A stretch of 63,924 nucleotides of DNA from Planctomycetota bacterium (GCA_018897395.1 JAHIKV010000324.1:1-63924), one strand, 5' to 3'; counted from the first letter of the stretch, positions 27,089 to 51,179 are shown. Notes: a model not told the origin generated them from the sequence alone. Numbers and translations: made by a program.

Positions 27089-27117
27089 ATAATATTATGG
27101 TAGAGATAGTACGTCAA
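27089..27117 (-). promoter_or_regulatory. element-type promoter
   Basis: GTTGACGTACTATCTCTACCATAA-TATTAT (TTGACG, 17 nt, TATTAT). Confidence 0.7.
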
Positions 27118-27135
27118 CATATGGAGGTGTCGCAC

Positions 27136-27549
27136 ATGGTGGAACAAGAGAATCAGTATCTGGTCTTCTACGAGAGAGTCCTATTGGCCTCAGCTATCAT
27201 CTTTGGGTTCATCGGCGGCTTCACGATTTATCTCACCTGCACGCCTGACACCCCTGCCAATTCAACGGTTCAGGTATTCCTCATAATATCTCTGGCCATG
27301 CTGTCCTTTTCTGTCTTCTCTGGCCTTCTCGCGCCTCTTTACTTCATGTCTTACTGCACCAAAGATCCGTACGGATCCCTTCTGTTTTTCAGGAGGAAGG
27401 AAGAGGTTAAGGGAGACGAAGCCCTGAACCAGTTGCAGAAGGACAAGAAGCGAAATTACGAGAGCCTCTTTCTTTTCCAGTTGACGTTTTTCGTTCTTGG
27501 CCAACTTTTCCTTTTCGTTGCCATATTCGTCAACATGTTCTGGGACTGA
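27136..27549 (+). CDS. small membrane protein
   Basis: ATG 27136 preceded by GGAGGTG. Three hydrophobic segments. AT-richer than its surroundings. Confidence 0.45.
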   Translation: MVEQENQYLVFYERVLLASAIIFGFIGGFTIYLTCTPDTPANSTVQVFLIISLAMLSFSVFSGLLAPLYFMSYCTKDPYGSLLFFRRKEEVKGDEALNQLQKDKKRNYESLFLFQLTFFVLGQLFLFVAIFVNMFWD

Positions 27550-27632
27550 GGCCCATTCTTCGTCAATCTTGAACCAGCCAGTACTGGTCGACGTCTTACC
27601 CGGGGAACAGAACCTCTCTGCCAGTTGTTTGT

Positions 27633-27721
27633 TGGTGCCGACGGAGGGATTCGAACCCCCACGCCCGTTGCCGGACACCTGGATTTAAGCCAAGCGCGTC
27701 TTCCAGTTCCGCCACGTCGGC
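27633..27721 (-). tRNA. tRNA-Leu(UAA)
   Basis: Acceptor GCCGACG/CGUCGGC, anticodon loop CU-UAA-AU, long variable arm, T-loop UUCGAAU, CCA encoded. Confidence 0.85.
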
Positions 27722-27797
27722 TGGTAGCCCCTGCTGGTCTCGAACCAGCGGCCTCCTGTTTGTAAGACAGGCGCTCTCCCTGCTGAGCTAAGGGGCT
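27722..27797 (-). tRNA. tRNA-Val(UAC)
   Basis: Loop CU-UAC-AA, A1-U72, CCA encoded. Confidence 0.85.
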
Positions 27798-27801
27798 GTG
27801 T

Positions 27802-27888
27802 TGGTACCGGTGGAGAGAGTCGAACTCCCACGCCCTTTCGGACACCTGGTCCTAAGCCAGGCGCGTCTTCCAGTTCCGCCACACCGGC
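27802..27888 (-). tRNA. tRNA-Leu(UAG)
   Basis: Loop CU-UAG-GA, long variable arm, CCA encoded. Confidence 0.85.
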
Positions 27889-28051
27889 ACGGTTACCGCA
27901 ACAGCCATTAACCCCGGTTCCGTTCTACCCGGCCATCTATCTCGAGGCTTTATGCACCCCAGGTCATTGTTTCCCCCGGAGTTTCTCCTAAGGAACACTC
28001 GTTCCTCAGCGACAGGTGGTTGTCGCGGCAATATTCAGTTTTCAAGGTAGC

Positions 28052-28139
28052 TGGTGGCCGCACCAGGATTCGAACCTGGATGCTCGATGCGAACGGGAGC
28101 TTTTGAGGCCCCTGCGTCTTCCAATTCCGCCATACGGCC
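28052..28139 (-). tRNA. tRNA-Leu(CAA)
   Basis: Loop CU-CAA-AA, long variable arm, CCA encoded. Confidence 0.85.
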
Positions 28140-28142
28140 ATT

Positions 28143-28218
28143 TGGTCCCGAGGGCTGGGATTGAACCAGCGACGCCCTGGTCTTCGGCCAGGCGCTCTAC
28201 CGTCTGAGCTACCTCGGG
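28143..28218 (-). tRNA. tRNA-Phe(GAA), C33 variant
   Basis: Stem CCUGG/CCAGG, loop CC-GAA-GA (C at position 33), C1-G72, CCA encoded. Confidence 0.75.
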
Positions 28219-28221
28219 TTC

Positions 28222-28312
28222 TGGCGGAGAGAGCAGGACTCGAACCTGCAAGACGGCACTTGACCGTCCACGGGTTAGCAACCCGCTGCCTTACCAATTC
28301 GGCCACCTCTCC
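28222..28312 (-). tRNA. tRNA-Ser(GCU)
   Basis: Loop UU-GCU-AA, long variable arm, CCA encoded. Confidence 0.85.
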
Positions 28313-28313
28313 G

Positions 28314-28387
28314 TGGTTTGGGAGGGAGGGATCGAACCTCCAGCACCAGGTCCAAAGCCTGGCGTTCTACCGTTGAACTACTCCCAA
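28314..28387 (-). tRNA. tRNA-Gln(UUG)
   Basis: U1-A72, loop CU-UUG-GA, CCA encoded. Confidence 0.85.
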
Positions 28388-28388
28388 G

Positions 28389-28462
28389 TGGATGCCCGGG
28401 GAGGGGTCGAACCCCCGTCTCCTGGTCCAGGGCCAGGCGTCTTCCCACTAGACTACCGGGCA
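28389..28462 (-). tRNA. tRNA-Gln(CUG), C33 variant
   Basis: U1-A72, loop CC-CUG-GA (C33), CCA encoded. Confidence 0.75.
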
Positions 28463-28463
28463 T

Positions 28464-28556
28464 TGGCGGAGGGGAAGGGGATCGAACCCTTAAGACCCTC
28501 TCGGGCTCAACTGTTTTCAAGACAGTCTCCGTCGCCAGCCTTCGGATTGCCCCTCC
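28464..28556 (-). tRNA. tRNA-Ser(UGA)
   Basis: Acceptor GGAGGGG/CCCCUCC, G73, 3-bp D stem, loop CU-UGA-AA, long variable arm, CCA encoded. Confidence 0.8.
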
Positions 28557-28569
28557 GCACGCTTATAAT

Positions 28570-28646
28570 TGGTCGGGGTGGCAGGATTTGAACCTGCGCC
28601 CCCATGGTCCCAAACCATGTGCGCTACCTGACTGCGCCACACCCCG
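28570..28646 (-). tRNA. tRNA-Pro(UGG)
   Basis: Loop UU-UGG-GA, CCA encoded. Confidence 0.85.
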
Positions 28647-28655
28647 ATGATTTTC

Positions 28656-28731
28656 TGGAGCGACCGGCGGGTCTTGAACCCGCGACCTCAACCCTGGCAA
28701 GGTTGCGCTCTACCGTCTGAGCTACGGTCGC
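28656..28731 (-). tRNA. tRNA-Gly(GCC)
   Basis: Loop UU-GCC-AG, CCA encoded. Confidence 0.85.
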
Positions 28732-28732
28732 T

Positions 28733-28807
28733 TGGAGCGAGCAAAGGGGTTCGAACCCTTATGGCCGACTTGGAAGGCCGGGGCTCTACCGATTGAGCTA
28801 TGCTCGC
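28733..28807 (-). tRNA. tRNA-Gly(UCC)
   Basis: Loop CU-UCC-AA, CCA encoded. Confidence 0.85.
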
Positions 28808-28883
28808 TGGTGGAACCGGTCGGGATCGAACCGACAACCTCCTGGTTGCAAACCAGGTGCTCTCCCGATTGAGCTACAGTCCC
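28808..28883 (-). tRNA. tRNA-Ala(UGC)
   Basis: Loop UU-UGC-AA, G3:U70 identity pair present, CCA encoded. Confidence 0.9.
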
Positions 28884-28887
28884 GCGA

Positions 28888-28963
28888 TGGTCGGCCCGGC
28901 AAGAATCGAACTTGCAATCTACCGGTTAAGAGCCGGTTGCTCTGCCAATTGAGCTACGGGCCG
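28888..28963 (-). tRNA. tRNA-Lys(CUU)
   Basis: Loop CU-CUU-AA, CCA encoded. Confidence 0.85.
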
Positions 28964-28964
28964 A

Positions 28965-29039
28965 TGGTAGCGGCGGTGGGGATCGAACCCACGACCTCCA
29001 GGGTATGAACCTGGTGAGCTAACCACTGCTCCACGCCGC
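28965..29039 (-). tRNA. tRNA-Met(CAU), elongator type
   Basis: Loop UU-CAU-AC, paired 1:72, no GGG/CCC anticodon stem, CCA encoded. Confidence 0.8.
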
Positions 29040-29044
29040 ATTGT

Positions 29045-29119
29045 TGGGGTGACCTACCGGAATCGCACCGGCACCTCCAGGGCCACGGCCTGACGCTCTT
29101 CTATTGAGCTAAGGTCACC
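29045..29119 (-). tRNA. tRNA-His(GUG), C33 and atypical T-loop
   Basis: Encoded G-1 opposite C73, loop CC-GUG-GC (C33), T-loop UGCGAUU, CCA encoded. Confidence 0.7.
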
Positions 29120-29123
29120 TCGT

Positions 29124-29200
29124 TGGCTGCGGTGGCAAGATTCGAACTTGCGACACGGCGGTTAACAGCCGCCTGCTCTACCACTGAGCTACACCGCAGC
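29124..29200 (-). tRNA. tRNA-Asn(GUU)
   Basis: Loop CU-GUU-AA, CCA encoded. Confidence 0.85.
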
Positions 29201-29350
29201 GTTGCCCGACCCCACTCGAGAGGTCGGGCTTGCCGTTGACCGCCCTGGCCGATCACGTTACCTTAATACTGCTGCAAACGCTCTTGCTTCTCTCTTCAAT
29301 CAAACCCCCTTCCTTGCCTTTCTTTGCCAGTCACTCACGCTTTAGTTTTT

Positions 29351-29434
29351 TGGTGGGGATGTCAGGAATCGAACCTGCCTAGTCATCGACGCCGGGGTTA
29401 CGGCCCGGCACAGCTCCCACGCTGTCGCATCCCC
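29351..29434 (-). tRNA. tRNA-Tyr(GUA), C33 variant
   Basis: Loop CC-GUA-AC (C33), long variable arm as in bacterial tRNA-Tyr, CCA encoded. Confidence 0.7.
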
Positions 29435-29435
29435 T

Positions 29436-29509
29436 TGGAGGCGGAGACAGGAATCGCACCTGCGTGTGCCGGTTTGCAGCCGGCCGCTTTTCTCCTCAGC
29501 CACTCCGCC
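29436..29509 (-). tRNA. tRNA-Cys(GCA), atypical T-loop
   Basis: Loop CU-GCA-AA, T-loop UGCGAUU, CCA encoded. Confidence 0.75.
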
Positions 29510-29510
29510 T

Positions 29511-29584
29511 TGGTGGACCCGGATGGTGATGCTCCACCTCCTCCCGCTTATGAGGCGGGCGTTCTCCTGTTAAACTACGGGTCC
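29511..29584 (-). tRNA. tRNA-Ile2-like (CAU), atypical T-loop
   Basis: Loop CU-CAU-AA. Acceptor and D-arm (GGACCCGUAGUUUAAC) are nearly identical to tRNA-Ile(GAU) at 30085. T-loop AGCAUCA. CCA encoded. Confidence 0.65.
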
Positions 29585-29660
29585 TGGAGCCGGTGGAGGG
29601 CATCGAACCCCCGACCTTGGCATTACAAGTGCCCTGCTCTGCCATCTGAGCTACACCGGC
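29585..29660 (-). tRNA. tRNA-Thr(UGU)
   Basis: Loop CU-UGU-AA, CCA encoded. Confidence 0.85.
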
Positions 29661-29664
29661 TGTT

Positions 29665-29740
29665 TGGCACCCCCGCGAGGATTTGAACCCCGAACCTCCC
29701 GGGCCGAAACCGGGCGCTCTATCCGTTGAGCTACGGAGGT
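29665..29740 (-). tRNA. tRNA-Arg(UCG)
   Basis: A1-U72, loop UU-UCG-GC, CCA encoded. Confidence 0.8.
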
Positions 29741-29767
29741 ACATGTTGTTTGTCTTTTTCTGCTATT

Positions 29768-29844
29768 TGGAGGCCATCCCCGGACTCGAACCGGGAACAT
29801 CCACCTTAGGAGGGTGACGCTCTGTCCAGTTGAGCTAGATGGCC
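29768..29844 (-). tRNA. tRNA-Arg(CCU)
   Basis: Loop CU-CCU-AA, CCA encoded. Confidence 0.85.
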
Positions 29845-29852
29845 TTTTCCTT

Positions 29853-29929
29853 TGGAGCCCCCGGTCGGACTTGAACCTACAACCTGTGGATTAGAAGTCC
29901 ACCGCTCTATCCAATTGAGCTACGGGGGC
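29853..29929 (-). tRNA. tRNA-Arg(UCU)
   Basis: Loop CU-UCU-AA, CCA encoded. Confidence 0.85.
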
Positions 29930-29930
29930 T

Positions 29931-30005
29931 TGGCGCCCTGTAGGAGAGTCGAACTCCTATCTCCTCCTCGACAGGGAGGTATGCTTGCCACTACACCAAC
30001 AGGGC
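29931..30005 (-). tRNA. tRNA-Asp(GUC)
   Basis: Loop CU-GUC-GA, CCA encoded. Confidence 0.85.
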
Positions 30006-30084
30006 TGGTGGCCTCTGAGGGATTTGAACCCTGCGTTTCCGGGTTGAAAGTCCGGCGTCCTTGACCTGGCTGGACGAAGAGGCC
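30006..30084 (-). tRNA. tRNA-Glu(UUC)
   Basis: Loop CU-UUC-AA, enlarged D-loop, CCA encoded. Confidence 0.8.
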
Positions 30085-30159
30085 TGGTAGACCCGGAAGG
30101 CTTCGAACCCTCGCTTCACCCTAATCAGGGGTGCGTTCTGCCGGTTAAACTACGGGTCT
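30085..30159 (-). tRNA. tRNA-Ile(GAU), U37 variant
   Basis: Stem CACCC/GGGUG, loop CU-GAU-UA (pyrimidine at position 37), CCA encoded. Confidence 0.75.
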
Positions 30160-30347
30160 TTTAGGATGCCTAGCCGCTACCACCCAGGCCACTAAGGACC
30201 GGGGTCCACCCCAAACCGCTTCACTCCTCGCGGCAACACTCCCCGGGTCACACCGGGCGGAGTGCTTTCGGCACCAATACTTTTCCAGCTATTCTTTTTT
30301 CAAGGTTCCGCATCCCGCGTCTTTCCAGCGAGACAGTCACCGACTAT

Positions 30348-30423
30348 TGGTTGCGGGGGCGGGAGTTGCACCCGCACCCTCAGGGTTATGAACCCCGCTG
30401 AGCTGCTCCAGCTCCACCCCGCT
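30348..30423 (-). tRNA. initiator tRNA-fMet(CAU), atypical T-loop
   Basis: A1/A72 mismatch, GGG/CCC pairs closing the anticodon stem, loop UU-CAU-AA, T-loop UGCAACU, 3' end CCCCGCAACCA as in bacterial initiators. Confidence 0.75.
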
Positions 30424-30431
30424 TCATTTCC

Positions 30432-30507
30432 TGGTGGAGGTGGCAGGCCTCGAACCTGCGGCCTCCGGGTTAAAAGCCCGTTGCTCTGCCGTCTGAGCTA
30501 CACCTCC
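30432..30507 (-). tRNA. tRNA-Lys(UUU)
   Basis: Loop CU-UUU-AA, CCA encoded. Confidence 0.85.
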
Positions 30508-30509
30508 GC

Positions 30510-30584
30510 TGGCGGGCCGGGAAGGACTCGAACCTCCACTCTCCGGTTTTGGAGACCGTTGTGTTCCCGTTACACCACCGACCC
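30510..30584 (-). tRNA. tRNA-Trp(CCA)
   Basis: Loop CU-CCA-AA, G73, CCA encoded. Confidence 0.85.
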
Positions 30585-30595
30585 GTACTCCCACT

Positions 30596-30619
30596 AAAAA
30601 ACCGCCCCGTTCGAGGCGG
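30596..30619 (-). terminator. intrinsic terminator-like hairpin 12 nt upstream of the first tRNA
   Basis: RNA CCGCC-UCGAACGG-GGCGG followed by UUUUUU. tRNA-Trp starts at 30584. Confidence 0.6.
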
Positions 30620-30881
30620 CCTTGAGGAGTAATCCGTCAAAGAGTCACGTTACGCCCCCCGACCACCGCCTTCCCGTACGCCCTCGAAATAACCTGTGAG
30701 GGCACAAATCGGGTCCCAGGTCCCTGATGGCACCGTCTGGTGCTTCAAGGTTTTCCTCGCTATTCCATTCAGTTGTCGTGCTCTTCGTTTCACCATCAAC
30801 CTTCCGCTTTTCGTTCCCTGTCTATACAAACGCTTTCCATTCTGCGCTTGTTCCCAGTCAACACCTTTCTCTACAATAACT

Positions 30882-30910
30882 ATAATACTATCGCCATGAT
30901 AGTGAGTCAA
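30882..30910 (-). promoter_or_regulatory. element-type promoter heading the leader and tRNA array
   Basis: GTTGACTCACTATCATGGCGATAG-TATTAT (TTGACT, 17 nt, TATTAT). Confidence 0.65.
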
Positions 30911-30977
30911 CCGTCATTTCAACAATAATGTCCCTGATATTTTTCATGCCTGATGAATCTCCACCCGCTATTGCGGC

Positions 30978-31262
30978 TTATATCTTCTTCGCCGGCCTTC
31001 CGGCAGACTTCTTCTTTGCTGGTTTCTTAGCAGCCTTCTTCTTTGCGGGAGCTTTCCGCTTCTTCGCGGCCGCCCTCTTCTTGGCCGGTTTTTTCGCAAC
31101 CTTCTTTTCTACCGCACTTATCCTTGCGTCCAGCTCCTTTATGTCCTGGGTAGTAGCTACTCCAACCGTGTTCAGGGCCTTCCGCATTGCCCCGACTACC
31201 GCATCGTCCAACTCGCTCCTGATCTCTTCTATGGACTTCGTTACCTTCTTTTTCTCAGCCAT
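30978..31262 (-). CDS. histone-H1-like Lys/Ala-rich DNA-binding protein with phasin-like N-terminus
   Basis: 94 aa. Helical N-terminus (TTQDIKELDARISAVEKKV), then a KKPAKKRAAAKKRKAPAKKKAAKKPAKKK tail. Confidence 0.6.
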   Translation of the reverse strand: MAEKKKVTKSIEEIRSELDDAVVGAMRKALNTVGVATTQDIKELDARISAVEKKVAKKPAKKRAAAKKRKAPAKKKAAKKPAKKKSAGRPAKKI

Positions 31263-33980: not shown

Positions 33981-34009
33981 ATAATACGATGGTACGGATT
34001 GTAGGTCAA
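33981..34009 (-). promoter_or_regulatory. element-type promoter (ligA)
   Basis: GTTGACCTACAATCCGTACCATCG-TATTAT. Confidence 0.7.
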
Positions 34010-34031
34010 CCTTGAGGACGTCAATTACCCA

Positions 34032-34388: not shown

Positions 34389-34608
34389 CCTTTCCGAAAT
34401 CCTCGTAGGCGAATATCTCGGTCATCGCCAGTTCGTTGTCAGCCGCGTTGAACACGTCCACTATCACCCCGATTGGAGGCCTGTCGTCATCTTCCTTCAC
34501 CTCTATGTGCAGTTTCTGCTCCTTGGTGACCTCGCAGAACGCCTCCACGATAACCCTGCCGCCATCCCCCCGAGTAACTTTTAGCACTGCCTTCTCCCTT
34601 CGTTTCAA
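34372..34608 (-). CDS. hypothetical protein
   Basis: 78 aa. The TTG start is very close to the predicted transcription start. Confidence 0.4.
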   Translation of the reverse strand: MKRREKAVLKVTRGDGGRVIVEAFCEVTKEQKLHIEVKEDDDRPPIGVIVDVFNAADNELAMTEIFAYEDFGKVEDVA

Positions 34609-34619: not shown

Positions 34620-34648
34620 ATCATACGTTGCCGTAGATTGTACGTCAA
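34620..34648 (-). promoter_or_regulatory. element-type promoter
   Basis: ATTGACGTACAATCTACGGCAACG-TATGAT. Confidence 0.65.
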
Positions 34649-34666
34649 TCTATCCCCCTTTTCGTT

Positions 34667-34696
34667 ATGACTAATTGACAATTCAGTAAGTATAAT
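34667..34696 (+). promoter_or_regulatory. possible divergent promoter for a non-coding transcript
   Basis: ATGACT, 18 nt, TATAAT. No plausible ORF follows. Confidence 0.4.
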
Positions 34697-34702
34697 GTAT
34701 CA

Positions 34703-34835
34703 TGTAATTGCCCGTTCAGCGGGCGCACTGGGATTGTCCTCCCGGTGTATGACGTCACCTCCAAGGGGTCGCTTCCGAGCGGCTCCGCCGGGCGCTAAAG
34801 CTTAGCCCCCAGCCGAGTCGCTGGGGGTGATTTCA
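34703..34835 (+). ncRNA. candidate small RNA (~130 nt)
   Basis: Downstream of the promoter above. Hairpins GCCCG-UUCA-GCGGGC and AGCCCCCAGC-CGAGUC-GCUGGGGGU, followed by GAUUUCAUCU. The longest ORF is 18 codons. Confidence 0.35.
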
Positions 34836-35036
34836 TCTCTGGACAATGCGTTAGGTCTAAAAACACATTAGAGCCTGTCAGGGGCTAGACCATGTTGTGC
34901 CAAATCGTTCCACTTCACACTATATGTTGCCAATATTGTGCATGGTAACGCATGTTTACGCACATAGGGGTTAACAAATAATTAGCAATGTAACTCTGGG
35001 GGTTTTTGCTCAGCAAACAGCCTTCTAGCTTGCTTG

Positions 35037-36333: not shown

Positions 36334-36963
36334 CTAGATATACGCCGGGTCGTGCTGTCTTTTGAGCGCGGTCCTTATTGTGTTGTGCGCTCTCTTGAGA
36401 TGCCCCTCCAGGGGGACCCCTGAATCCAGCAGCCCCTCTATTGCCGTAGATATGGCCTGGGCGTCTTCTCGCATCAGGCTTATTTCTACCTGCTTGTTGC
36501 CAAACGTTTCCTTGAGTGTATGTTGCCATCCAAGCGACACTATCAGCGCATCCCTTGCCTGCTCGAACTGCTCTGCATTTTCTGCCGGCGTCAGGGCGGG
36601 TCTTCCGTATTCGAGACTCTCCCCCTCTTCATGCACGTGCCGCAGGTACTCCGCGCAGTAATCCATCTCATAGGTGACATGTTCCGCCTCGTCTGTCTTG
36701 AGGACCACCGTTACAACCTCGTTGTCGTTTCCAGTAAGCGCGTCCTCTGACGCGTCCGCCGTCCCCTTGAAAAGCGCGGCTGTTGCCAGCTCTTCATCGT
36801 TTGATTCCATTCCTAGGCGCAGGATATCTTTTGCCCGACGTTCCATCTCGTCTCTCAGGAACTTTGCGTTCCCCCTTGTCATAGAAGCTTCTATCTCAAC
36901 CAACGGGATGCCCCCCTCTCTTATGTGTAATCTTATCGTATGTTCTAAGAGATAGTTGGTCAA
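36334..36963 (-). CDS. hypothetical protein
   Basis: 209 aa. No family recognised. Confidence 0.5.
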   Translation of the reverse strand: MTNYLLEHTIRLHIREGGIPLVEIEASMTRGNAKFLRDEMERRAKDILRLGMESNDEELATAALFKGTADASEDALTGNDNEVVTVVLKTDEAEHVTYEMDYCAEYLRHVHEEGESLEYGRPALTPAENAEQFEQARDALIVSLGWQHTLKETFGNKQVEISLMREDAQAISTAIEGLLDSGVPLEGHLKRAHNTIRTALKRQHDPAYI

Positions 36964-37033
36964 CTGTTGCCGGTGAATATCTGTTTTTGGGAAAGTTTGG
37001 GGCTGTTTCCGGATACTCAGCTATTTGAAGTTG

Positions 37034-38032: not shown

Positions 38033-38061
38033 ATATTATAATGCGTGGGATAGTACGTCAA
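38033..38061 (-). promoter_or_regulatory. element-type promoter
   Basis: GTTGACGTACTATCCCACGCATTA-TAATAT. Confidence 0.7.
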
Positions 38062-38101
38062 CTGTTTTAGAAACACACATTTTTCTTTTCAAGCCATTCT
38101 C

Positions 38102-40071: not shown

Positions 40072-40100
40072 ATATTATTATGTAAGGGATAGTACGTCAA
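40072..40100 (-). promoter_or_regulatory. element-type promoter
   Basis: GTTGACGTACTATCCCTTACATAA-TAATAT. Confidence 0.7.
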
Positions 40101-40244
40101 CCTTATAGCTTTATTCATCCCCATTCTCGGCCTCCCGGGTCGCCTCATTTCCTTTTATGACTTCTCCCAATCAAATTTCTCACAGGATGGCGGGTCTAAC
40201 CGCTCTCCTGGAAAAAATAGACAAAAAAGGCAACTGGATCGTAT

Positions 40245-41298: not shown

Positions 41299-41327
41299 AA
41301 GATAGGGGCTGTGGAATAGTGCGTCAA
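41299..41327 (-). promoter_or_regulatory. element-type promoter
   Basis: GTTGACGCACTATTCCACAGCCCC-TATCTT. Confidence 0.6.
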
Positions 41328-41349
41328 CCTCAATCGGCCAGAATGACCC

Positions 41350-42450: not shown

Positions 42451-43146
42451 TCAGGCGACCCCCACCTTCGCTTGCGTTTTTACCTTCCCGTTTCCCGGGG
42501 TTGCCACGTAGATTGCGGGCTTGAACTCCGAGTTCTTGAACGTTATCGCTCTCTTCGCCAACTCCAGCACGTCTTCTATGGTGTTCACCGAGTTGTACGC
42601 ATTCCTGTAGTCTTTGACTAGAGTTCTTGGGCAAGCCAGCCCTCTCTGATGCGCGAGGTCTAGTGCGCCACGCAAAATGGAATCCAGTATCACGGTAAGC
42701 ACTGGCACGCCGAGAAGCGCTCCGTTAAGGTACGCCTGCGCACCCCATATTGTTATGCTGTCCCCTGAAACCGACACCGTCTCGAATGCGTAGTCGTCCT
42801 CTCCGGTTAGCCTGGAGACCACTCCACTTCTTGTCCCTTGTGCCAGGTACACCTTGCAGGACTCTAATGCCTCCTTTGACCTTCTCCCCCACACCTCACC
42901 CAGTCGCTCTGCGTCCACCTGGACCTCGACCCTGTCGCCGGCGTACCCATCCTTGAATCCCGCGTAGATCTCCCGGGCAATGTTTTCCGGCATCTCCCTC
43001 CAGGCTTCCGTTTCTCTTTCTACGGGACGCAGTTTCCTTTCGCTCGCTCCTTCCCCCCCTTTGACGTCAACTGGCTCTTCCCGGGCCTCCCTGTCACGCT
43101 CCTGGCCGATCCTTTCAACCAATCTCCGCGCCTCCATCTCTGTCAT
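42451..43146 (-). CDS. hypothetical protein (candidate replication or partition factor by position only)
   Basis: ATG 43146, 8 nt after AGGAGG. First gene of the operon, divergent from two small plus-strand genes. Confidence 0.45.
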   Translation of the reverse strand: MTEMEARRLVERIGQERDREAREEPVDVKGGEGASERKLRPVERETEAWREMPENIAREIYAGFKDGYAGDRVEVQVDAERLGEVWGRRSKEALESCKVYLAQGTRSGVVSRLTGEDDYAFETVSVSGDSITIWGAQAYLNGALLGVPVLTVILDSILRGALDLAHQRGLACPRTLVKDYRNAYNSVNTIEDVLELAKRAITFKNSEFKPAIYVATPGNGKVKTQAKVGVA

Positions 43147-43195
43147 GCGACCCACCTCCTGTGTCCTTTGTCATTAAAACCTATCATAAGTAATA

Positions 43196-43224
43196 TTGAT
43201 ATGTCAATTATTATTGTTTATAAT
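43196..43224 (+). promoter_or_regulatory. promoter for the small Cys-rich gene
   Basis: TTGATA, 17 nt, TATAAT. Confidence 0.6.
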
Positions 43225-43254
43225 AGTAATAGTTCTTTCTACAGGAGGTGCCAG

Positions 43255-43494
43255 ATGGAGGTTTCTTGTGACGTAAAGACCCGCTACGTTTGCCTCTGTT
43301 GCGGGATGGAGTCCGTTTTCTGTATTACGGGGGGCGGTGAATGCCCTCCTCCCCCTGACGCAACATCCCGCTATTTATCTGTGACGGTTAGCGACGGCCA
43401 TTGGTCGGGATGGACACTGGTCTGCCCGGGCTGCCTCCTGGGATGCTCTTGCCGCGGGACCGACATAACCGTTGTAGAGGAGCGCGATAAATAA
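43255..43494 (+). CDS. small Cys-rich protein
   Basis: ATG 43255 after an AGGAGG RBS. 79 aa with CLCC, CPGC and CSC motifs. Confidence 0.5.
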   Translation: MEVSCDVKTRYVCLCCGMESVFCITGGGECPPPPDATSRYLSVTVSDGHWSGWTLVCPGCLLGCSCRGTDITVVEERDK

Positions 43495-43506: not shown

Positions 43507-43535
43507 ATGACGTATTATTATATGTTATCTATAAT
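43507..43535 (+). promoter_or_regulatory. plus-strand variant of the element-type promoter
   Basis: ATGACGTATTATTATATGTTATC-TATAAT. Confidence 0.55.
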
Positions 43536-43555: not shown

Positions 43556-43807
43556 ATGTTCCGAACCAACGGGAGGAACCTACAACAAGAGATTCGCAAG
43601 GCCAACAAATTGGCCAGTAAGGCGGACGATCGGTCCTCGCGCAACCTGCTCAGGACGGATATGGAGAACCCGATGTGTCTCTCTAACTACCTGAGAATGG
43701 CCACGGTTTGCGCATGGAACAGTCTTTGCCTATCTACGGACCGAAGGCTTTACGGCAGAAAAAAGAGTCACATACTCTCTTATCTCGATTCGTCGACATC
43801 TCTTTGA
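43556..43807 (+). CDS. small basic hypothetical protein
   Basis: ATG 43556, 8 nt after AGGAGG. 83 aa. Confidence 0.45.
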   Translation: MFRTNGRNLQQEIRKANKLASKADDRSSRNLLRTDMENPMCLSNYLRMATVCAWNSLCLSTDRRLYGRKKSHILSYLDSSTSL

Positions 43808-43849: not shown

Positions 43850-43880
43850 AAAAAAGGAGACCGGCTCTTGGCCGGTCTCC
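43850..43880 (-). terminator. intrinsic terminator
   Basis: GGAGACCGGC-CAAGA-GCCGGUCUCC followed by UUUUUU on the minus strand. Confidence 0.75.
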
Positions 43881-44024
43881 CCGCGGTCCTATCAGGTCGT
43901 TGCTCAACCCGCAAACCACGATGTCTTCGTGTTTCTTGTGGCTTTCGCCTCTTAGAAACTCCCCAGATCGCAAAATAGCGAACGCGGTTTATAATGTGGG
44001 GATATTGCAATTAGACGCCGTCTT
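43850..44024 (-). ncRNA. candidate ~175-nt small RNA
   Basis: Runs from the promoter at 44031-44059 to the terminator at 43850-43880. The only ORF (43780..44010) reads straight through the terminator. Confidence 0.45.
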
Positions 44025-44030
44025 GCTTAC

Positions 44031-44059
44031 ATCTTAGCAAGATACTTGCTTCACGTCAA
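44031..44059 (-). promoter_or_regulatory. promoter of the candidate small RNA
   Basis: GTTGACGTGAAGCAAGTATCTTGC-TAAGAT. Confidence 0.55.
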
Positions 44060-44836: not shown

Positions 44837-44865
44837 ATAATAGGGTGGATAGGATAGTGCGTCAA
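44837..44865 (-). promoter_or_regulatory. element-type promoter (ssb)
   Basis: GTTGACGCACTATCCTATCCACCC-TATTAT. Confidence 0.7.
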
Positions 44866-44927
44866 CCTTGAATCCAATAATATATTGTCCTTCGGGTGTT
44901 TTCTGGTGTCTCTCTGTGCTGTTCTAT

Positions 44928-47319: not shown

Positions 47320-47341
47320 AAAAGATATTGCCTCATCAATT

Positions 47342-47370
47342 ATTATATTCCCCGGGTCTCTGTATGTCAA
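47342..47370 (-). promoter_or_regulatory. parAB promoter
   Basis: ATTGACATACAGAGACCCGGGGAA-TATAAT. Confidence 0.65.
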
Positions 47371-47397
47371 TTGTCTGTGCCCCTGTTGGCCATAATT

Positions 47398-47864: not shown

Positions 47865-49606
47865 TTTTTCCACCCTCTCGTGTAATCCTTGATTGCCTTG
47901 GTTAGTCTTGATGGCAACGTCTCTGTGTCCTCTGCGAATACGTACCTTGAGTAAATCTTCTTTAGGTGGTTGTCGCTCTTTGGCCCTATGTAGATACACA
48001 TCACGTCCGCAAACCTCTCGACATCCTTCACGCTTATCCTTGTGTCCTCTATTGCCCCTGCCCCCCAGTAGTCGATGCTTTGGGGCAGTCCGTCGCTTAT
48101 CACAACCATCAGCTTTCTTCTGTTCTTCTCGGCCCTCAGGTACTCTCCCGCAAGATTGATAGCCAGTCCGTCCCTGTTGTTGTCTCTTGCCCTTACGTTT
48201 GCCAGTTTCGCCGAGAGTGACCTGGTTACCCTTTCCCCGAACTTGATGTATGCCCTCAGCCGCAAGTTGTCCGTTACGCCACAGTTGTCGAACCCCATTA
48301 CCGAGTGCCTTATCCCAAGCTCTCTTAGCGCTTCGTGTAACGCCACCGCCGCTTCTCTCAAGTGCTTTTCTCTTGTGTACATAGACCCGCTTTCGTCGAG
48401 CAGCACCATCACACAAGGTTCTCTGTTTACCTTTGCCCGCTGGTTCCTGAATATACTCTTCTCCCCTAGAACTGACCTGTACACCAGCGGCGGGTCCACG
48501 GTCCCCCTTCTCTCTTCCCGCCTTACGTCGTCCAGCTCTTCCCTCAGTAGTATCAACTTCAACGCCTTCTTGAGCTTCTTTGCGGCGGGTTTTGTCACCG
48601 CCTTTACGTTCTCATACTCTGCCAGATCCCCGTCCGGCCTTTCCAAAACCACTTCTGCGGAGAACCTTAGTACCCGATTTTTGTACTCTTCTTTCCCCCC
48701 TCTTATTGCTTTTTCCAGTCCATTTTCCCCCTCTGCGTTCGCCCTGCCCGTTTCCTCGATCTCCCTCTCGATCTCCCGCAGCAGTTCTTCCTCTCTGTCT
48801 TCTCCCCCCTTTTCTGCTTCTCCGAGCACCGTCACGTCTTCCTCTTTGCCTTCCGGTATCGCTTCCCCCCCCACGTCCACCCTTATCTTCGGCCCCTCTC
48901 CCGGCATATCGTCACTTGATAGTTGAGGCTCCCCTACCCCGGGAAAATCCTTCGCTCCTGGCGGGATCAGGTCTTTTACTATCTCCCATATGTCCTCTGC
49001 CCCCGCCAGCACGTCCAGCGGGTCTCGTGCATACCTTGCCTCTGCCACCTTCGGCTTTACTCCCTCAACGATGTTCCTTATTGCGCTTCCCGATATCCCG
49101 TCGCTTGACTTCTTGAAACGGGTCCTTATCTCTCCAAGCTTTGAGAGTTCCCACATGGCACTCCACACCTGTTGCCACGCCGTCGCTTCCCCTTCTATCT
49201 TTTCATACATGTGTTCGTTCATCGTGCCCAGCAGCGCGTTCGCCCTTTTGACCGCCTGTCTCAGCAGTAACTCTATCCGCCCGTCCTCGAGCAAGTTCCA
49301 GATATTCTTTATCCCGTTCTTTGACTCTTCCTTCCGTCCTGCTTCGACTACCGTCTCTGTCGGTGTGTACAGGGCATGCCCCGCTTCGTGGAGCACCATG
49401 GCCTTGGCTATGTGCAATTCTTCCATGCCACCTTCCATCTCTTCCACGCGGATCAGGTTCCTCACGTGCTCATAGGACGCCCCGATTCCCTCGCCGTACA
49501 GGACCCTTATCGTCCAGTCATTCGCCACCCGGTGCGCGTACCGGCTCAAGAAACCTGCGATTACGTCTCTGCTTACGCTGGCCTTCTCCTTAAGCAGCAA
49601 GCTCAT
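47861..49606 (-). CDS. vWA-domain protein with N-terminal HExxH motif (CobT-like)
   Basis: MVLHEAGHALYTP near the N-terminus, an acidic linker, a vWA MIDAS motif VLLDESGSM, and VVISDGLP. Confidence 0.8.
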   Translation of the reverse strand: MSLLLKEKASVSRDVIAGFLSRYAHRVANDWTIRVLYGEGIGASYEHVRNLIRVEEMEGGMEELHIAKAMVLHEAGHALYTPTETVVEAGRKEESKNGIKNIWNLLEDGRIELLLRQAVKRANALLGTMNEHMYEKIEGEATAWQQVWSAMWELSKLGEIRTRFKKSSDGISGSAIRNIVEGVKPKVAEARYARDPLDVLAGAEDIWEIVKDLIPPGAKDFPGVGEPQLSSDDMPGEGPKIRVDVGGEAIPEGKEEDVTVLGEAEKGGEDREEELLREIEREIEETGRANAEGENGLEKAIRGGKEEYKNRVLRFSAEVVLERPDGDLAEYENVKAVTKPAAKKLKKALKLILLREELDDVRREERRGTVDPPLVYRSVLGEKSIFRNQRAKVNREPCVMVLLDESGSMYTREKHLREAAVALHEALRELGIRHSVMGFDNCGVTDNLRLRAYIKFGERVTRSLSAKLANVRARDNNRDGLAINLAGEYLRAEKNRRKLMVVISDGLPQSIDYWGAGAIEDTRISVKDVERFADVMCIYIGPKSDNHLKKIYSRYVFAEDTETLPSRLTKAIKDYTRGWKK

Positions 49607-51131
49607 CGTCTATCATGTCCACAAGGGACACCCTTTCCTCTTCATCTTTCGCAACCGCCGGCACTATGAGCAGTTGCGCTATCTTCTTTGGGCTTTCCCC
49701 GTCCGTGTACTTCGCCCAGGTTATGAGGTTCCTTGTTGTTATCGGTTGCGAGATCTCTCCGTGTTCATACTGCTTCCTGGTCTTCTGCGCGATTTCTACC
49801 ATCTTCCTTATTAGTCCGTTGTCCTTGTTCCCGCTTCTCTTCGCTACCACCTTGGTCTCTTCGGGTGTGTCCAGGTAATCAAGGTATATCTTCACGAACC
49901 TGTCCTCTGTTGAGGGGTCAAGCCCCCCGGCACCCAGGTACTCGTCGCCTTCATTTGCGGTTGCGATAACTCTTGTGTGCCTGTGTAGCTTCATCGTCCT
50001 GTCCCCCAGTTCAAGCACCCTATCCTGTAGGAATGAGTTAAACACCATCGCTCTCTCCGGCTTGAGGCTTCTTATCTCGTCAACAAGTAGCCCGTACCCA
50101 TTCCTAGCTGCTATCATCAACTTGCTTTCTACCTCATGTGTTGACCCGTCCTTTATGCCAGTGCTTTTCACCAGTGAACAGTAGTAGTCAAAGTCGCTGT
50201 TCGCGCTTATTGTCACCATCGGCATCCCCATGTGTGCATACACCGCCTGCGCCAGCGTACTTTTGCCTATCCCTGCGGGGCCGATGATCATTAGCGGGTC
50301 CTTCTCGTGAGTTATGGTAGTCGCCAGTTTTTCTTCTCCCATCCTGTCAACGTAGAACACCCGCTTTGGTACCATCTTCTCTTCGGCCTTGGTTAACTTG
50401 CGCTCTACCACAAACTGGCTCCAGTCGATATTTTCCACCTTCCTTTTCGCTGCGCCCTTTTCTACCTTCGCTTTCCCGAGCACGTCTGTTCCCAACCGCA
50501 GTTCCCTCCCCTTGTGGCTTCTGAACGTCTTCTCGCGGTCCGGTATGTCCATCAACTTGAAGTCTTCGTTCATCTTGTGTGTCCATCTCATCTGGTAGTA
50601 CGTCTCGTCCATCAACCGTATGAGCTCTTTTTCCTCTTCGCTTCCGACCGTCATGGTAATAGCCCCCGCAGCCATGATCTTGTTTATACCCTCTCTTGTC
50701 TCGCTTCCCCCTCTGACCGCCTCAAGGCAAAGCATCGCTACAGGTATGTGGTAACAAGAGGCATGCCCGCTTGAGGGGTCGCAGGCCGGGCACTCATGTG
50801 ACACCAGTATCTCTCCGCTATGTTTCCCGCGCGTAATCCTCATGTGGTATGTCTTGCTCGCGGTGCTCCCGCTTGCCATCGCAACAAAAATGCCCTCTGG
50901 GTTTTGCTTGTCTTCGTACACCCTTGTTTGCCACAGTGCCTTTACGACCACCGCTTCCATCTTTCCGCTCACTACGGTGTGGGCCTGTACCTTGGGCGTT
51001 TTTGCGTCCAGGAGTTCTACGTGCGTGGTTCCGAAGTAATCCCTGTCTATTATCTTCTCCAGGGCACCCCTTTGTAACAACCAAAGGTCTGTGCTCCGCC
51101 CGAAAAGTTGTGTGAAATTGTACTTTGCCAT
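49590..51131 (-). CDS. MoxR/CobS-like AAA+ ATPase with N-terminal SWIM zinc finger
   Basis: SWIM-type CPACDPSSGHASCYH. Walker A IIGPAGIGKST, Walker B LLVDEI. ATG 51131 follows the promoter at 51151-51179. Confidence 0.8.
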   Translation of the reverse strand: MAKYNFTQLFGRSTDLWLLQRGALEKIIDRDYFGTTHVELLDAKTPKVQAHTVVSGKMEAVVVKALWQTRVYEDKQNPEGIFVAMASGSTASKTYHMRITRGKHSGEILVSHECPACDPSSGHASCYHIPVAMLCLEAVRGGSETREGINKIMAAGAITMTVGSEEEKELIRLMDETYYQMRWTHKMNEDFKLMDIPDREKTFRSHKGRELRLGTDVLGKAKVEKGAAKRKVENIDWSQFVVERKLTKAEEKMVPKRVFYVDRMGEEKLATTITHEKDPLMIIGPAGIGKSTLAQAVYAHMGMPMVTISANSDFDYYCSLVKSTGIKDGSTHEVESKLMIAARNGYGLLVDEIRSLKPERAMVFNSFLQDRVLELGDRTMKLHRHTRVIATANEGDEYLGAGGLDPSTEDRFVKIYLDYLDTPEETKVVAKRSGNKDNGLIRKMVEIAQKTRKQYEHGEISQPITTRNLITWAKYTDGESPKKIAQLLIVPAVAKDEEERVSLVDMIDDELAA

Positions 51132-51150
51132 GCTTATCACCTCAAGTATT

Positions 51151-51179
51151 AATATATGTTCTATGGGATAGTACGTCAA
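51151..51179 (-). promoter_or_regulatory. element-type promoter (AAA+/vWA/HIRAN operon)
   Basis: GTTGACGTACTATCCCATAGAACA-TATATT. Confidence 0.7.

What the first reader, a model, noticed from the sequence alone, without database searches (positions are those of the whole stretch)
27089..51179. One extended promoter motif (GTTGACGTACTATCC - TATTAT) heads at least eleven transcription units of the element
A near-identical sequence sits immediately upstream of minus-strand operon starts at -35 positions 27112, 30905, 34004, 34643, 38056, 40095, 41322, 44860 and 51174. Looser copies occur at 44054 and 47365, and a plus-strand variant at 43507.

Each has TTGAC(G/C/T/A), exactly 17 nt, then TATTAT, TAATAT, TATAAT, TATGAT, TATATT, TATCTT or TAAGAT. 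In nine of them the 9 nt after the -35 are also conserved ((T/C)AC(T/A)AT(C/T)(C/T/A)). Promoter function alone does not require that, so it suggests an operator or a dedicated sigma or activator contact.

I did not see the motif outside 27-51.2 kb, and it is absent from the pst, peptidase and WxL regions. It therefore also helps define the element.

Several ORF-track starts fall inside these promoters (27147, 30910, 41333, 47370, 51182), which argues for the shorter gene models used here. Two genes (41288, 34608) would be nearly leaderless.
Basis: seen in the sequence. Interest (0 to 1): 0.7.

Follow-up and report, generated by a model that had tools for sequence, protein, structure and literature searches.

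The report
Shared promoter-plus-box regulon of genomic islands
Ten operons of a 30-kb foreign island, including a full set of about 30 tRNA genes, start with the same strong bacterial promoter carrying an extra conserved 7-8 bp box, and the same signal heads operons of a second island elsewhere in the same genome, which suggests one unknown regulator switches both islands together.

Summary
Ten sites on the minus strand between 27.1 and 51.2 kb fit G-TTGAC-S-Y-ACWATC-C-N4-CA-N3-TAnnnT with an exact 17-nt spacer. They score 31-46 bits against a matrix built from those same ten sites, and the next best site in the window scores 8 bits. Each lies in an intergenic gap 13-49 nt upstream of a start codon with a ribosome-binding site, or upstream of the tRNA array. 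Three of its "looser copies" are plain sigma-70-type promoters without the box.

The motif is not confined to this element. Five more sites head the operons of a second, unrelated island of about 17.5 kb found in the same six samples. That island encodes a ParB-like protein, a SigH-like sigma factor, a primase and a nuclease. Three orthologous sites occur in a relative that is 81% identical. Between the two relatives, the -35, box and -10 differ at 1 of 63 positions, against 9 of 27 in the rest of the spacer.

Best reading: these are strong promoters for the host's main sigma factor with a built-in asymmetric regulatory box, most likely an operator for an unidentified island regulator. The island sigma keeps ordinary SigH recognition helices, so it is probably not what reads the box. 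This is a new member of a known kind, the promoter/operator regulons of mobile elements. No transcription data exist and the regulator is unknown.

The parts
51151..51180 (-). Box promoter 1, gTTGACGtactatcc-N9-TATATT. It heads the MoxR/CbbQ-type AAA ATPase, the CobT-like VWA protein and the HIRAN protein. It lies about 125 nt inside the island border.
   Evidence: 41.9 bits; ATG 51131, leader 13 nt, SD GAGGTG; genes
44837..44866 (-). Box promoter 2. It heads the SSB gene.
   Evidence: 44.0 bits; ATG 44799, leader 31 nt
41299..41328 (-). Box promoter 3 (box ACTATT, -10 TATCTT). It heads a 142-aa gene that would be nearly leaderless (ATG 41288) and a 139-aa membrane protein.
   Evidence: (31.5 bits)
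40072..40101 (-). Box promoter 4. It heads an 85-aa gene, a B12-binding/radical-SAM-like protein and a 171-aa protein.
   Evidence: (46.2 bits)
38033..38062 (-). Box promoter 5. It heads the PD-(D/E)XK (Cas4-like) nuclease gene.
   Evidence: (40.4 bits)
36935..36964 (-). It heads genes of 189, 119 and 174 aa.
   Evidence: 36.0 bits; TTG 36903 after AGAGGGGGG
34620..34649 (-). Box promoter 7 (box ACAATC). It heads a gene of about 70 aa and a Cys-rich 118-aa gene.
   Evidence: (32.7 bits)
33981..34010 (-). Box promoter 8 (box ACAATC). It heads the NAD-dependent DNA ligase, a 166-aa gene and the H1-like 94-aa gene.
   Evidence: (41.3 bits)
30882..30911 (-). Box promoter 9. It heads the tRNA array.
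   Evidence: 35.5 bits; tRNAs
27089..27118 (-). Box promoter 10. It heads a gene of about 105 aa and the DUF1848, NYN-like and DUF2786/DUF7168 genes.
   Evidence: (42.9 bits)
27633..30584 (-). Array of 29-30 tRNA genes covering all 20 amino acids, downstream of box promoter 9.
   Evidence: 29 by ARAGORN; one more at 29514-29584 by Rfam
47342..47370 (-). Box-less promoter matching the consensus 12 of 12 (TTGACA-17-TATAAT) for parA-parB and a 224-aa lipoprotein. It serves as a control showing the host polymerase signal without the box.
   Evidence: 1.3 bits on the box matrix
43178..43224 (.). Back-to-back divergent box-less promoters. On the minus strand, TTGACA-18-TAGGTT with TG serves the 231/235/117-aa operon. 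On the plus strand, TTGATA-17-TATAAT serves the 79-aa Cys-rich gene. This is a switch-like region, with tandem ACTATT boxes at 43222-43233.
51306..51386 (+). Fragment of a tyrosine-recombinase C-terminus that marks the upstream border of the box-bearing island.
21188..21298 (+). Second copy of the same recombinase C-terminal fragment, marking the downstream border. The island is therefore about 21.3-51.3 kb. Further copies lie at 15411-15590 and 19648-19755.

Best explanation
The sites are strong promoters for the host's primary-sigma (sigma-70/sigmaA type) RNA polymerase. They have a -35 of TTGAC, an exact 17-nt spacer and a -10 of TAnnnT. Each carries a built-in asymmetric regulatory box, YACWATC(C), at about -29 to -22 directly after the -35.

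A single trans-acting factor that reads this box, probably together with the -35, would control all box promoters at once. That means at least ten operons of the 21.3-51.3 kb island and at least five operons of a second island in the same genome. The genes controlled include those for replication and repair, a ParB-like protein, a SigH-like sigma factor and a complete tRNA set.

The promoters are near consensus, and box-less consensus promoters work in the same island. The box is therefore most likely an operator for a repressor that keeps the islands silent until a signal releases them. This resembles phage early promoters and plasmid backbone regulons.

Shown: the family, its placement, its discreteness, its spread to a second island, and purifying selection on the box. 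Inferred: use by the primary sigma, binding by a protein, the sign of regulation, and which gene encodes the factor (unknown).
For: Family and statistics:
- 15 hits against 1.06 expected.
- 10 hits to the 15-mer in the island against 1.1 expected.
- Matrix scores are bimodal: 31-46 bits against 8.4 or less.

Promoter anatomy:
- All ten window sites, the five sites of the second island and the three in its relative have a 17-nt spacer, the invariant T, A and T of the -10, and the same orientation as the downstream genes.
- Predicted starts lie 13-49 nt before start codons preceded by a ribosome-binding site.
- In L179, an ATG conserved in the relative sits at the seventh base after the -10, which is a standard position for a leaderless start.

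The box is a separate feature:
- A7, C8, A10 and T11 are invariant and C12 nearly so. The last -35 position and the rest of the spacer vary.
- Box-less promoters in the same island (ParA 12 of 12 to consensus, IS630, the divergent pair at 43.2 kb) show the signal works without the box.

Selection: between L179 and L187 (81% identical), the -35, box and -10 differ at 1 of 63 positions. The distal spacer differs at 9 of 27, the upstream 20 nt at 25 of 57 and the downstream 20 nt at 13 of 60. Fisher p values are 5e-5 and 6e-8.

Specificity to the islands:
- No site in about 39 kb of host-like sequence on hand.
- The strict pattern hits the 77-kb contig Ga0180014_1000002 only twice, both inside its island end.
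- Scans of viral and genome collections gave only single hits at chance level.

Co-occurrence: both islands and the window's pst flank occur in the same samples.
Against: - There are no transcription data, so initiation at these sites is inferred from sequence only.
- No DNA-binding protein could be assigned. Pfam, NCBIfam, PHROGs and PDB searches of the small island proteins found nothing, and two structure models were too poor to use.
- The sign of regulation is a guess from promoter strength.
- Every gene of the second island seen so far lies behind a box promoter, and one of them is a sigma factor. That layout also fits positive autoregulation.
- The host's complete genome could not be scanned.
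Confidence: 0.55

Rival explanations
1. The motif is the promoter of a dedicated alternative sigma factor: the SigH-like protein encoded on the second island (L179:5085-5735). This protein sits in an operon headed by the motif, so it would drive its own synthesis and both islands in a positive loop.
For: - A sigma gene with Sigma70_r2 and r4_2 domains lies in the second operon of island 2, behind the box promoter at L179:3052.
- Autoregulated alternative sigma operons are common (established knowledge).
- The sigma, the motif and the gene order are all kept in the relative L187.
- Conservation over about 30 nt with a rigid spacer is typical of alternative-sigma promoters.
Against: - The -35 and -10 are those of the primary sigma.
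- The conservation pattern in the -10 hexamer (first T, A at position 2, last T invariant) is the primary-sigma pattern.
- The island sigma keeps the region 2.4 and region 4.2 helices of chromosomal SigH proteins (...TRQIITAVKTH.R.KH.PL... and ...VDNALCRI.KK...). SigH and ComX-type promoters (RNAGGAWWW, 11-12 nt, RNNGAAT; Britton et al. 2002, from my own knowledge) share nothing with the motif.
- A sigma region 4 reads about 6 bp, not 14.
- Box-less consensus promoters in the island show the host enzyme would fire these sites anyway.
Confidence: 0.12
2. The box is the docking site of a positive factor that works on RNA polymerase already bound at the promoter. This could be an activator touching sigma region 4, a sigma-appropriation partner like T4 MotA, or an antiterminator that loads between -35 and -10 like lambda Q. 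It would then let transcription run through the long co-directional gene rows.
For: - The box sits at -29 to -22, directly beside the -35. This overlaps the position of the T4 MotA box and the zone of the lambda Q-binding element (established knowledge).
- The site is asymmetric and always in one orientation relative to transcription.
- Few terminators are predicted between operons, and all genes point one way.
Against: - The promoters are already close to consensus with optimal spacing, so they should not need an activator.
- MotA-type promoters lack a -35, whereas here it is invariant.
- No conserved pause-inducing -10-like element lies just after the start, as Q-type loading needs.
- No homologue of MotA, AsiA or Q was detected.
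Confidence: 0.15
3. No trans-acting factor is involved. The shared sequence reflects common descent of a copied promoter cassette, or an intrinsic spacer effect on promoter strength through contacts with core polymerase.
For: - Copies of homologous promoters in front of unrelated genes are known in bacteria (from my own knowledge, Matus-Garcia et al. 2012).
- Spacer sequence can tune promoter strength.
- No regulator was found.
Against: - The conserved block has sharp edges and the distal spacer is free to vary. This is not what recent copying leaves.
- In diverged orthologous sites the box is kept while its neighbours change.
- The box is kept across two islands that share no other DNA similarity.
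- Strong promoters without the box exist in the same island.
Confidence: 0.12
4. The sites are promoters for a T7-like single-subunit RNA polymerase. GAC(G/T)(T/C)ACTAT resembles the T7 core GACTCACTATA.
For: The copy at 30910 (GACTCACTATCA) matches T7 positions -11 to -2 at 10 of 10. The consensus matches 8 of 12 (my comparison with the T7 promoter from memory; sequence).
Against: - Neither island has an ORF of polymerase size.
- The position equivalent to +1 is C or T, not G.
- An invariant -10 hexamer at exactly 17 nt has no role in such promoters.
Confidence: 0.01

Closest known systems
Operators and 'stoperators' of Cluster A mycobacteriophages (L5 gp71, TipsytheTRex repressor)
   Same: - Both are an asymmetric site of about 13-16 bp repeated many times across a mobile element of an actinobacterial host.
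- In both, the site is always oriented with transcription.
- From memory, the L5 site read on the transcribed strand is CTTGACAKCCACC, a -35 hexamer followed by a specific extension, as here.
- In L5 it is read by a monomeric two-domain repressor (PMC9283540).
   Different: - Most L5 sites are free-standing in short intergenic gaps and block elongation. Here every site is part of a complete promoter, and the box never occurs alone on the coding strand inside the island.
- The sequence is unrelated.
- No gp71-like repressor was detected.
- The sites span two separate islands.
Global repressor networks of broad-host-range plasmids (RK2 KorA/KorB, R388 ArdK/StbA/KorA)
   Same: - Many strong backbone promoters share one operator that overlaps or abuts the -35 or -10.
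- One or two element-encoded proteins hold replication, partition and maintenance operons together.
- ParB-family proteins are encoded in the element (my own knowledge of these systems).
   Different: - KorA and KorB operators are palindromes and R388 sites are repeats. Here there is a single asymmetric box with no partner half-site.
- No conjugation genes are present.
- The elements are chromosomal islands.
Early promoters of Bacillus phage SPO1 with the phage sigma gp28
   Same: Near-consensus host-sigma promoters drive early genes, including a phage-encoded sigma factor that then reads a different promoter class (PMC13401047 abstract; otherwise my own knowledge).
   Different: - SPO1 early promoters share only the host consensus, not an extra box.
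- No middle or late promoter class and no structural genes were found here.
Conserved early promoters and conserved inverted-repeat operators of Streptomyces phage phiC31
   Same: A highly conserved promoter/operator unit is repeated in intergenic regions of an actinophage and bound by the phage repressor (my own knowledge, Ingham et al. 1994).
   Different: - The phiC31 operators are 17-bp inverted repeats.
- Its early promoters are not sigma-70-like.

Membership tests
Sigma-70 / sigmaA-type promoter | -35 hexamer close to TTGACA | tested here: met
   TTGAC is invariant in 10 of 10 window sites and in 8 of 8 sites in L175, L179 and L187.
Sigma-70 / sigmaA-type promoter | -10 hexamer TAnnnT, with position 2 A and position 6 T most conserved, 17 +/- 1 nt after the -35 | tested here: met
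   All 18 sites have T, A and T invariant and an exact 17-nt spacer. The 15-mer search did not require the -10.
Sigma-70 / sigmaA-type promoter | Lies upstream of, and in the same direction as, a gene or RNA gene, at a sensible distance | tested here: met
   All sites are intergenic and co-directional with the downstream gene. Leaders are 13-49 nt, with two near-leaderless or leaderless cases, and one site heads the tRNA array.
Sigma-70 / sigmaA-type promoter | Transcription actually starts 6-8 nt after the -10 with the primary-sigma holoenzyme | not testable with these tools
   This needs 5' end mapping or in vitro transcription.
Cluster A mycobacteriophage operator/stoperator system | Asymmetric site of about 13 bp, many copies, orientation tied to the direction of transcription | tested here: met
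   The core is 14-16 bp and asymmetric. All 18 sites are co-directional with the genes and no partner half-site is conserved.
Cluster A mycobacteriophage operator/stoperator system | Most sites are free-standing (no promoter) in short intergenic gaps and stop elongation | tested here: not met
   Every site has a -10 in register. YACWATC occurs on the minus strand within 21-51 kb only inside box promoters.
Cluster A mycobacteriophage operator/stoperator system | A gp71-type repressor (N-terminal HTH plus C-terminal 'stirrup' domain) is encoded in the element | tested here: inconclusive
   Pfam, PHROGs and NCBIfam gave no hit for the island proteins, and PDB searches of three window candidates found nothing. 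No direct comparison with gp71 was possible, and the structure models were unusable.
SigH (Spo0H/ComX-type) promoter | -35 RNAGGAWWW and -10 RNNGAAT, 11-12 nt apart | tested here: not met
   The motif contains neither element. AGGAWWW-N13-16-GAAT gave 0 hits in the window, L179 and L175. The consensus is taken from the Firmicutes literature (my own knowledge) and is unknown for Actinomycetota.
T4 MotA-dependent middle promoter (sigma appropriation) | A MotA box centred at -30 replaces the -35, and the element encodes MotA and AsiA | tested here: not met
   The -35 is invariant. No MotA or AsiA family hit was found.
T7-like single-subunit polymerase promoter | About 23 bp conserved from -17 to +6, a start at G, and a cognate polymerase gene | tested here: not met
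   C or T occupies the equivalent of +1. There is no polymerase-size ORF. The conserved sigma-type -10 would be unexplained.
ParB/KorB-type operator (parS or OB) | Palindromic site of 13-16 bp | tested here: not met
   The site is asymmetric. Inverted partners are seen in single copies only (30910, 44865) and are not conserved.

The most novel reading that the evidence does not exclude
The box is the address label of a new, still unidentified polymerase-associated regulator. It ties two physically separate genomic islands of an uncultured, probably deep-branching actinobacterial lineage into a single switchable programme. The programme would turn on a private replication and repair kit, a paralogue of the SigH developmental sigma factor, and a complete private set of about 30 tRNAs. 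On this reading the islands are a split or domesticated mobile element that can reprogramme both transcription and translation of its host on one signal, for example to survive tRNA-cleaving defence or stress.
Probability: 0.15. Interest if true: 0.7.

Novelty: new member of a known kind. Interest (0 to 1): 0.45.

Why it matters
If the reading is right, a 30-nt signal is enough to recognise which genes of an otherwise unannotatable "dark matter" genome belong to one mobile regulon. About 60 genes are involved and most have no known family.

The signal links two islands that share no sequence. It places a complete tRNA set and a SigH paralogue under the same switch.

It also gives a concrete bait, the 16-bp core GTTGACSYACWATCC, for fishing out the regulator by DNA pull-down or DAP-seq.

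The promoters themselves are compact, strong and apparently co-regulated. That could be useful as parts for actinobacterial genetics.

The principle itself is not new. Shared promoter/operator units are the normal way phages and plasmids are controlled.

Tried and rejected
1. Close relatives in annotated phage and plasmid collections. None were found beyond tRNA-length matches.

2. Scans of viral and genome collections for the 15-mer and a longer pattern. They gave only single chance-level hits. One contig with two hits (L041) lacks the -10 and is unrelated.

3. Relatives found through the nuclease and the AAA ATPase. Nothing turned up in the viral or metagenome collections. Two proteins 45% identical to the ATPase lie in other gene contexts without the motif.

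4. Relatives of the second island's primase. These are plasmid-like loci of an Armatimonadetes MAG and others, with a different conserved promoter and no box.

5. Identifying the regulator. Pfam, PHROGs, NCBIfam and PDB searches of the small or unknown proteins found nothing. AlphaFold models of the 83-aa and 231-aa proteins had pLDDT of 58 and 43.5, so no fold search was run.

6. A second promoter class for the island sigma. No SigH-type sites and no other over-represented 8- to 10-mers were found.

7. Resemblances I considered for the box and dropped, because only some copies fit or the second half-site is missing. These were a DnaA box, an NrdR half-site, a second -10-like hexamer (TACTAT, with the conserved CA at +18/+19 as its start) and the T7 core promoter. 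All are my own comparisons with sequences.

8. One literature search (Geothermincolia / SigH) returned only irrelevant papers.

Full report
**1. The observation**

The pattern TTGAC-N18-TAnnnT occurs 15 times in the window, against 1.06 expected from dinucleotide-preserving shuffles.

Shuffles give 1.1. All ten also have TAnnnT exactly 17 nt after the hexamer, although that search did not ask for it.

The sites, given as the first T of TTGAC, are 51179, 44865, 41327, 40100, 38061, 36963, 34648, 34009, 30910 and 27117.

Aligned, they give aaGG-TTGAC-(G/C/T)-(T/C)-AC(T/A)AT(C/T)-C, four free positions, CA, three free positions, then TA(T/A)nAT. Positions A7, C8, A10 and T11 after the start of the hexamer are invariant, as are the T, A and final T of the -10. 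Sequence more than 4 nt upstream and anywhere downstream is unconserved.

A weight matrix built from the ten sites scores them 31.5-46.2 bits. These scores are inflated because the sites trained the matrix. The best other position in the 63.9 kb scores 8.4 bits.

They are good sigma-70-like promoters without the extension. The site at 24259 belongs to an IS630-family insertion sequence.

**2. Setting**

The sites lie in a region of lower G+C (about 53%, against about 60% in the flanks).

Four copies of the last 27-60 codons of a tyrosine recombinase (...[30 protein letters not shown]) sit on the plus strand at 15411-15590, 19648-19755, 21188-21298 and 51306-51386. No full-length integrase is present. 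The last two copies bracket a 30-kb unit that contains all ten sites, so I take 21.3-51.3 kb as the island.

Its genes all run on the minus strand:
- a MoxR/CbbQ-type AAA ATPase, a CobT-like VWA protein and a HIRAN protein;
- ParA and ParB;
- SSB;
- a B12/radical-SAM-like protein;
- a PD-(D/E)XK Cas4-like nuclease;
- NAD-dependent DNA ligase;
- an H1-like lysine/alanine-rich protein;
- DUF1848 and DUF2786/DUF7168 proteins;
- many proteins with no family.

There are no virion, lysis or conjugation genes.

An array of 29 tRNA genes (ARAGORN), or 30 with one extra Rfam hit, covers all 20 amino acids at 27633-30584. The promoter at 30910 heads it.

The flanks look chromosomal: a pst operon, a group II intron, PAS histidine kinases and giant TIG/DUF5719 surface proteins.

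**3. Promoter anatomy**

Every site is intergenic and points the same way as the genes downstream. Taking the seventh base after the -10 as the start, the leaders to start codons preceded by a ribosome-binding site are 13-49 nt.

The mechanical ORF starts at 27147, 30910, 41333, 47370 and 51182 fall inside the promoters. Four are the TTG of the -35 itself.

A near-leaderless start at 41288 is plausible. The one at 34608 is not needed, because GTG 34587 follows GGGAGAAGG.

The island also has box-less promoters. One has a perfect 12 of 12 consensus in front of parA. There is a back-to-back divergent pair at 43178-43224, and a site at 44059 is followed by a strong terminator at 43854-43882. The host polymerase signal therefore works here without the box, and the box is an addition.

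**4. The motif is not confined to this element**

I scanned the metagenome collection for GTTGACGYACTATCC-N9-TANNNT. This returned 22 stretches. Only one contig, Ga0180014_1000002, has two of them. It comes from the same JGI sample that holds a 99.9% identical copy of the window's island.

Exact-sequence look-ups of its proteins gave access to 16.4 kb (L175) and, from another assembly, 12.6 kb further upstream (L179). Together they show a second island of about 17.5 kb. It lies between recO/spoIID on one side and TIG/DUF5719 and C25-peptidase genes on the other. It has no DNA similarity to the window, and only a ParB N-terminal domain is shared at the protein level.

The second island carries five sites, at L179 2137, 3052, 6562 and 9937 and at L175 4277. 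They score 23-38 bits on the window matrix, while the next best position scores 7 bits. Each heads a row of co-directional genes:

| Site | Genes headed |
|---|---|
| L179 2137 | 104-aa and 88-aa basic proteins |
| L179 3052 | ParB-like protein of 472 aa, a 174-aa protein, a sigma factor of 216 aa and three small genes |
| L179 6562 | six unknown genes |
| L179 9937 | DUF7768 and others, interrupted by a TnpB insertion |
| L175 4277 | staphylococcal-type nuclease, a DnaG-like primase and a 202-aa protein |

Both islands and the window's pst flank are found in the same samples: ERZ27247113, ERZ27247108, JGI 3300013391, SRR11548474, SRR6516043 and SRR35107301. Both islands also sit beside paralogous giant surface-protein genes. 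I infer one genome with two islands, but physical linkage was not shown.

The sigma's nearest named relatives are SigH of Geothermincolia, Anoxymicrobium and other Actinomycetota. This hints at a deep-branching actinobacterial host.

**5. Selection on the box**

The sigma has an 85% identical relative on a 4.8-kb contig from another sample (L187). That contig has the same gene order as island 2 and is 81% identical to it in DNA. The similarity begins exactly at the first motif site.

The three orthologous sites are kept. Across the three pairs:

| Region | Differences |
|---|---|
| -35, box and -10 | 1 of 63 |
| Distal spacer | 9 of 27 |
| 20 nt upstream | 25 of 57 |
| 20 nt downstream | 13 of 60 |

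Fisher p values are 5e-5 against the spacer and 6e-8 against all flanks.

In L179 an ATG sits on the seventh base after the -10 of the first site. It opens a 56-codon basic ORF that is conserved in L187. This is the textbook layout of a leaderless actinobacterial gene and independent support for the predicted start point.

**6. What reads the box**

The island sigma was the obvious candidate. It is a two-domain sigma whose best family match is sporulation-type SigH (165 bits, below the 208-bit equivalog cut-off). Its best solved relative is a sigma-H structure.

Aligned with chromosomal SigH proteins of Actinomycetota and Clostridia, it keeps their region 2.4 and region 4.2 helices almost unchanged. 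From the literature as I know it, SigH and ComX-type promoters are RNAGGAWWW, 11-12 nt, then RNNGAAT. Nothing like that is in the motif or anywhere in the islands.

I therefore think the sigma is cargo expressed from a box promoter and aimed at another promoter class, as in phage SPO1. There, host-sigma early promoters express gp28.

The box never occurs alone on the coding strand of the island, so this is not a stoperator-type system. It has no conserved inverted partner, which argues against ParB/KorB-type or other dimeric palindrome binders.

No island protein could be assigned a DNA-binding fold. Two structure models were too poor to search with.

**7. Most likely mechanism**

These are near-consensus primary-sigma promoters, each with one asymmetric operator abutting the -35. 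An island-encoded or host factor, probably monomeric, reads that operator.

Promoters this strong should fire unaided, and the same island runs box-less promoters for partition and for its divergent "switch" genes. I therefore favour repression: silence of both islands, released together. This is inference.

The rivals are in the report sections: a dedicated sigma, an activator or antiterminator docking site, no factor at all, and a T7-like promoter.

**8. Comparison and verdict**

The closest known systems are:
- the L5-type operator/stoperator system of Cluster A mycobacteriophages (PMC9283540);
- the global repressor networks of plasmids RK2 and R388;
- SPO1 early promoters;
- the phiC31 conserved promoter/operator units.

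The window shows the same principle with a new sequence, a new position for the specific part (-29 to -22), exclusive coupling to promoters, and spread over two islands.

I file it as a new member of a known kind, of moderate interest. Its interpretation is partly right, but the claim that the motif defines this one element does not hold.

Noticed in passing
window 27633-30584 (-): An array of 29 tRNA genes (ARAGORN), plus one more at 29514-29584 found only by Rfam, covers all 20 amino acids. It lies inside a foreign island and is driven by a box promoter. Gaps of 150-190 nt at 27889-28051, 29199-29350 and 30160-30347 were not examined.
   Followed up: partly
window 15411-15590, 19648-19755, 21188-21298, 51306-51386 (+): There are four copies of the 3' end of a tyrosine-recombinase gene (27-60 codons, 92-100% identical at protein level). 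They bracket the island and two smaller units, and no full-length integrase is in the window. This looks like repeated insertion into, or decay of, an integrase 3' end (tandem islands).
   Followed up: partly
L179 2100-12581 and L175 1-7300 (contigs ERZ27247113 k141_71659, ERZ27247108 k141_7079, Ga0180014_1000002): A second island in the same samples has five box promoters. It encodes a SigH-like sigma factor (L179:5085-5735), a 472-aa ParB-N protein, a nuclease and a primase, and is interrupted by a TnpB/IS605 element. Assemblies break at this island.
   Followed up: yes
L179 2172-2342, L187 230-400: What looks like a 170-nt conserved leader starts with an ATG on the predicted transcription start. 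It reads as a 56-codon very basic ORF conserved in the relative. It is likely an unannotated leaderless gene, the first of island 2.
   Followed up: partly
window 43146-43255: This is a switch-like intergenic region. Two divergent promoters have abutting -35 hexamers within the quasi-palindrome TTGATATGTCAA. Two tandem ACTATT boxes (variants of the box) overlap the start of the plus-strand 79-aa Cys-rich gene. The plus-strand genes 43255-43494 and 43556-43807 are the only opposite-strand genes called in the motif-bearing part of the island.
   Followed up: partly
window 43854-44059 (-): The promoter at 44059 has a TG extension, and the inverted repeat GCAAGTATCTTGC lies in its spacer. It is followed about 150-180 nt later by a strong two-way terminator (12-bp stem). 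This could be a small RNA or a 76-codon ORF.
   Followed up: no
window 34650-35036, esp. 34675-34835 (+): This 390-nt gene-free gap has a plus-strand promoter matching the consensus 11 of 12 (TTGACA-17-TATCAT). It is followed by a G+C-rich segment that folds far better than shuffles (-69.9 kcal/mol, z = -5.1). No Rfam family matches. It is a candidate non-coding RNA or an origin-like region.
   Followed up: partly
window 23076-24259 (-): This is an IS630-family insertion sequence (HTH_32 plus DDE_3 in two ORFs) with its own TTGACA-17-TATACT promoter, inside the island.
   Followed up: partly
window 9800-11760 (-): This is a group II intron with its reverse transcriptase/maturase (10042-11427) and Rfam D1-D4 domains (11464-11757). 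It lies just downstream of the 873-aa surface-protein gene.
   Followed up: no
window 11881-14502 and 51472-56655; L175 8146-16393: Both islands lie next to very large, internally repetitive TIG/DUF5719 (BNR, C25 peptidase) surface-protein genes. These are paralogous (32-41% identical across the aligned stretches) and co-directional with the island genes. Whether that neighbourhood is a preferred insertion target is unknown.
   Followed up: no
window 30882-30911: In the tRNA-array promoter the box forms a perfect inverted repeat with the -10 flank (ACTATC atggc GATAGT). In 27117 the -10 lies in a 16-bp palindrome (ACCATAATATTATGGT). Such partners are not conserved across sites.
   Followed up: partly
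window 30978-31262 (-): This 94-aa protein has a phasin-like N-terminus (weak Pfam hit) and a lysine/alanine-rich H1-like tail. It is encoded immediately upstream of the tRNA-array promoter.
   Followed up: partly
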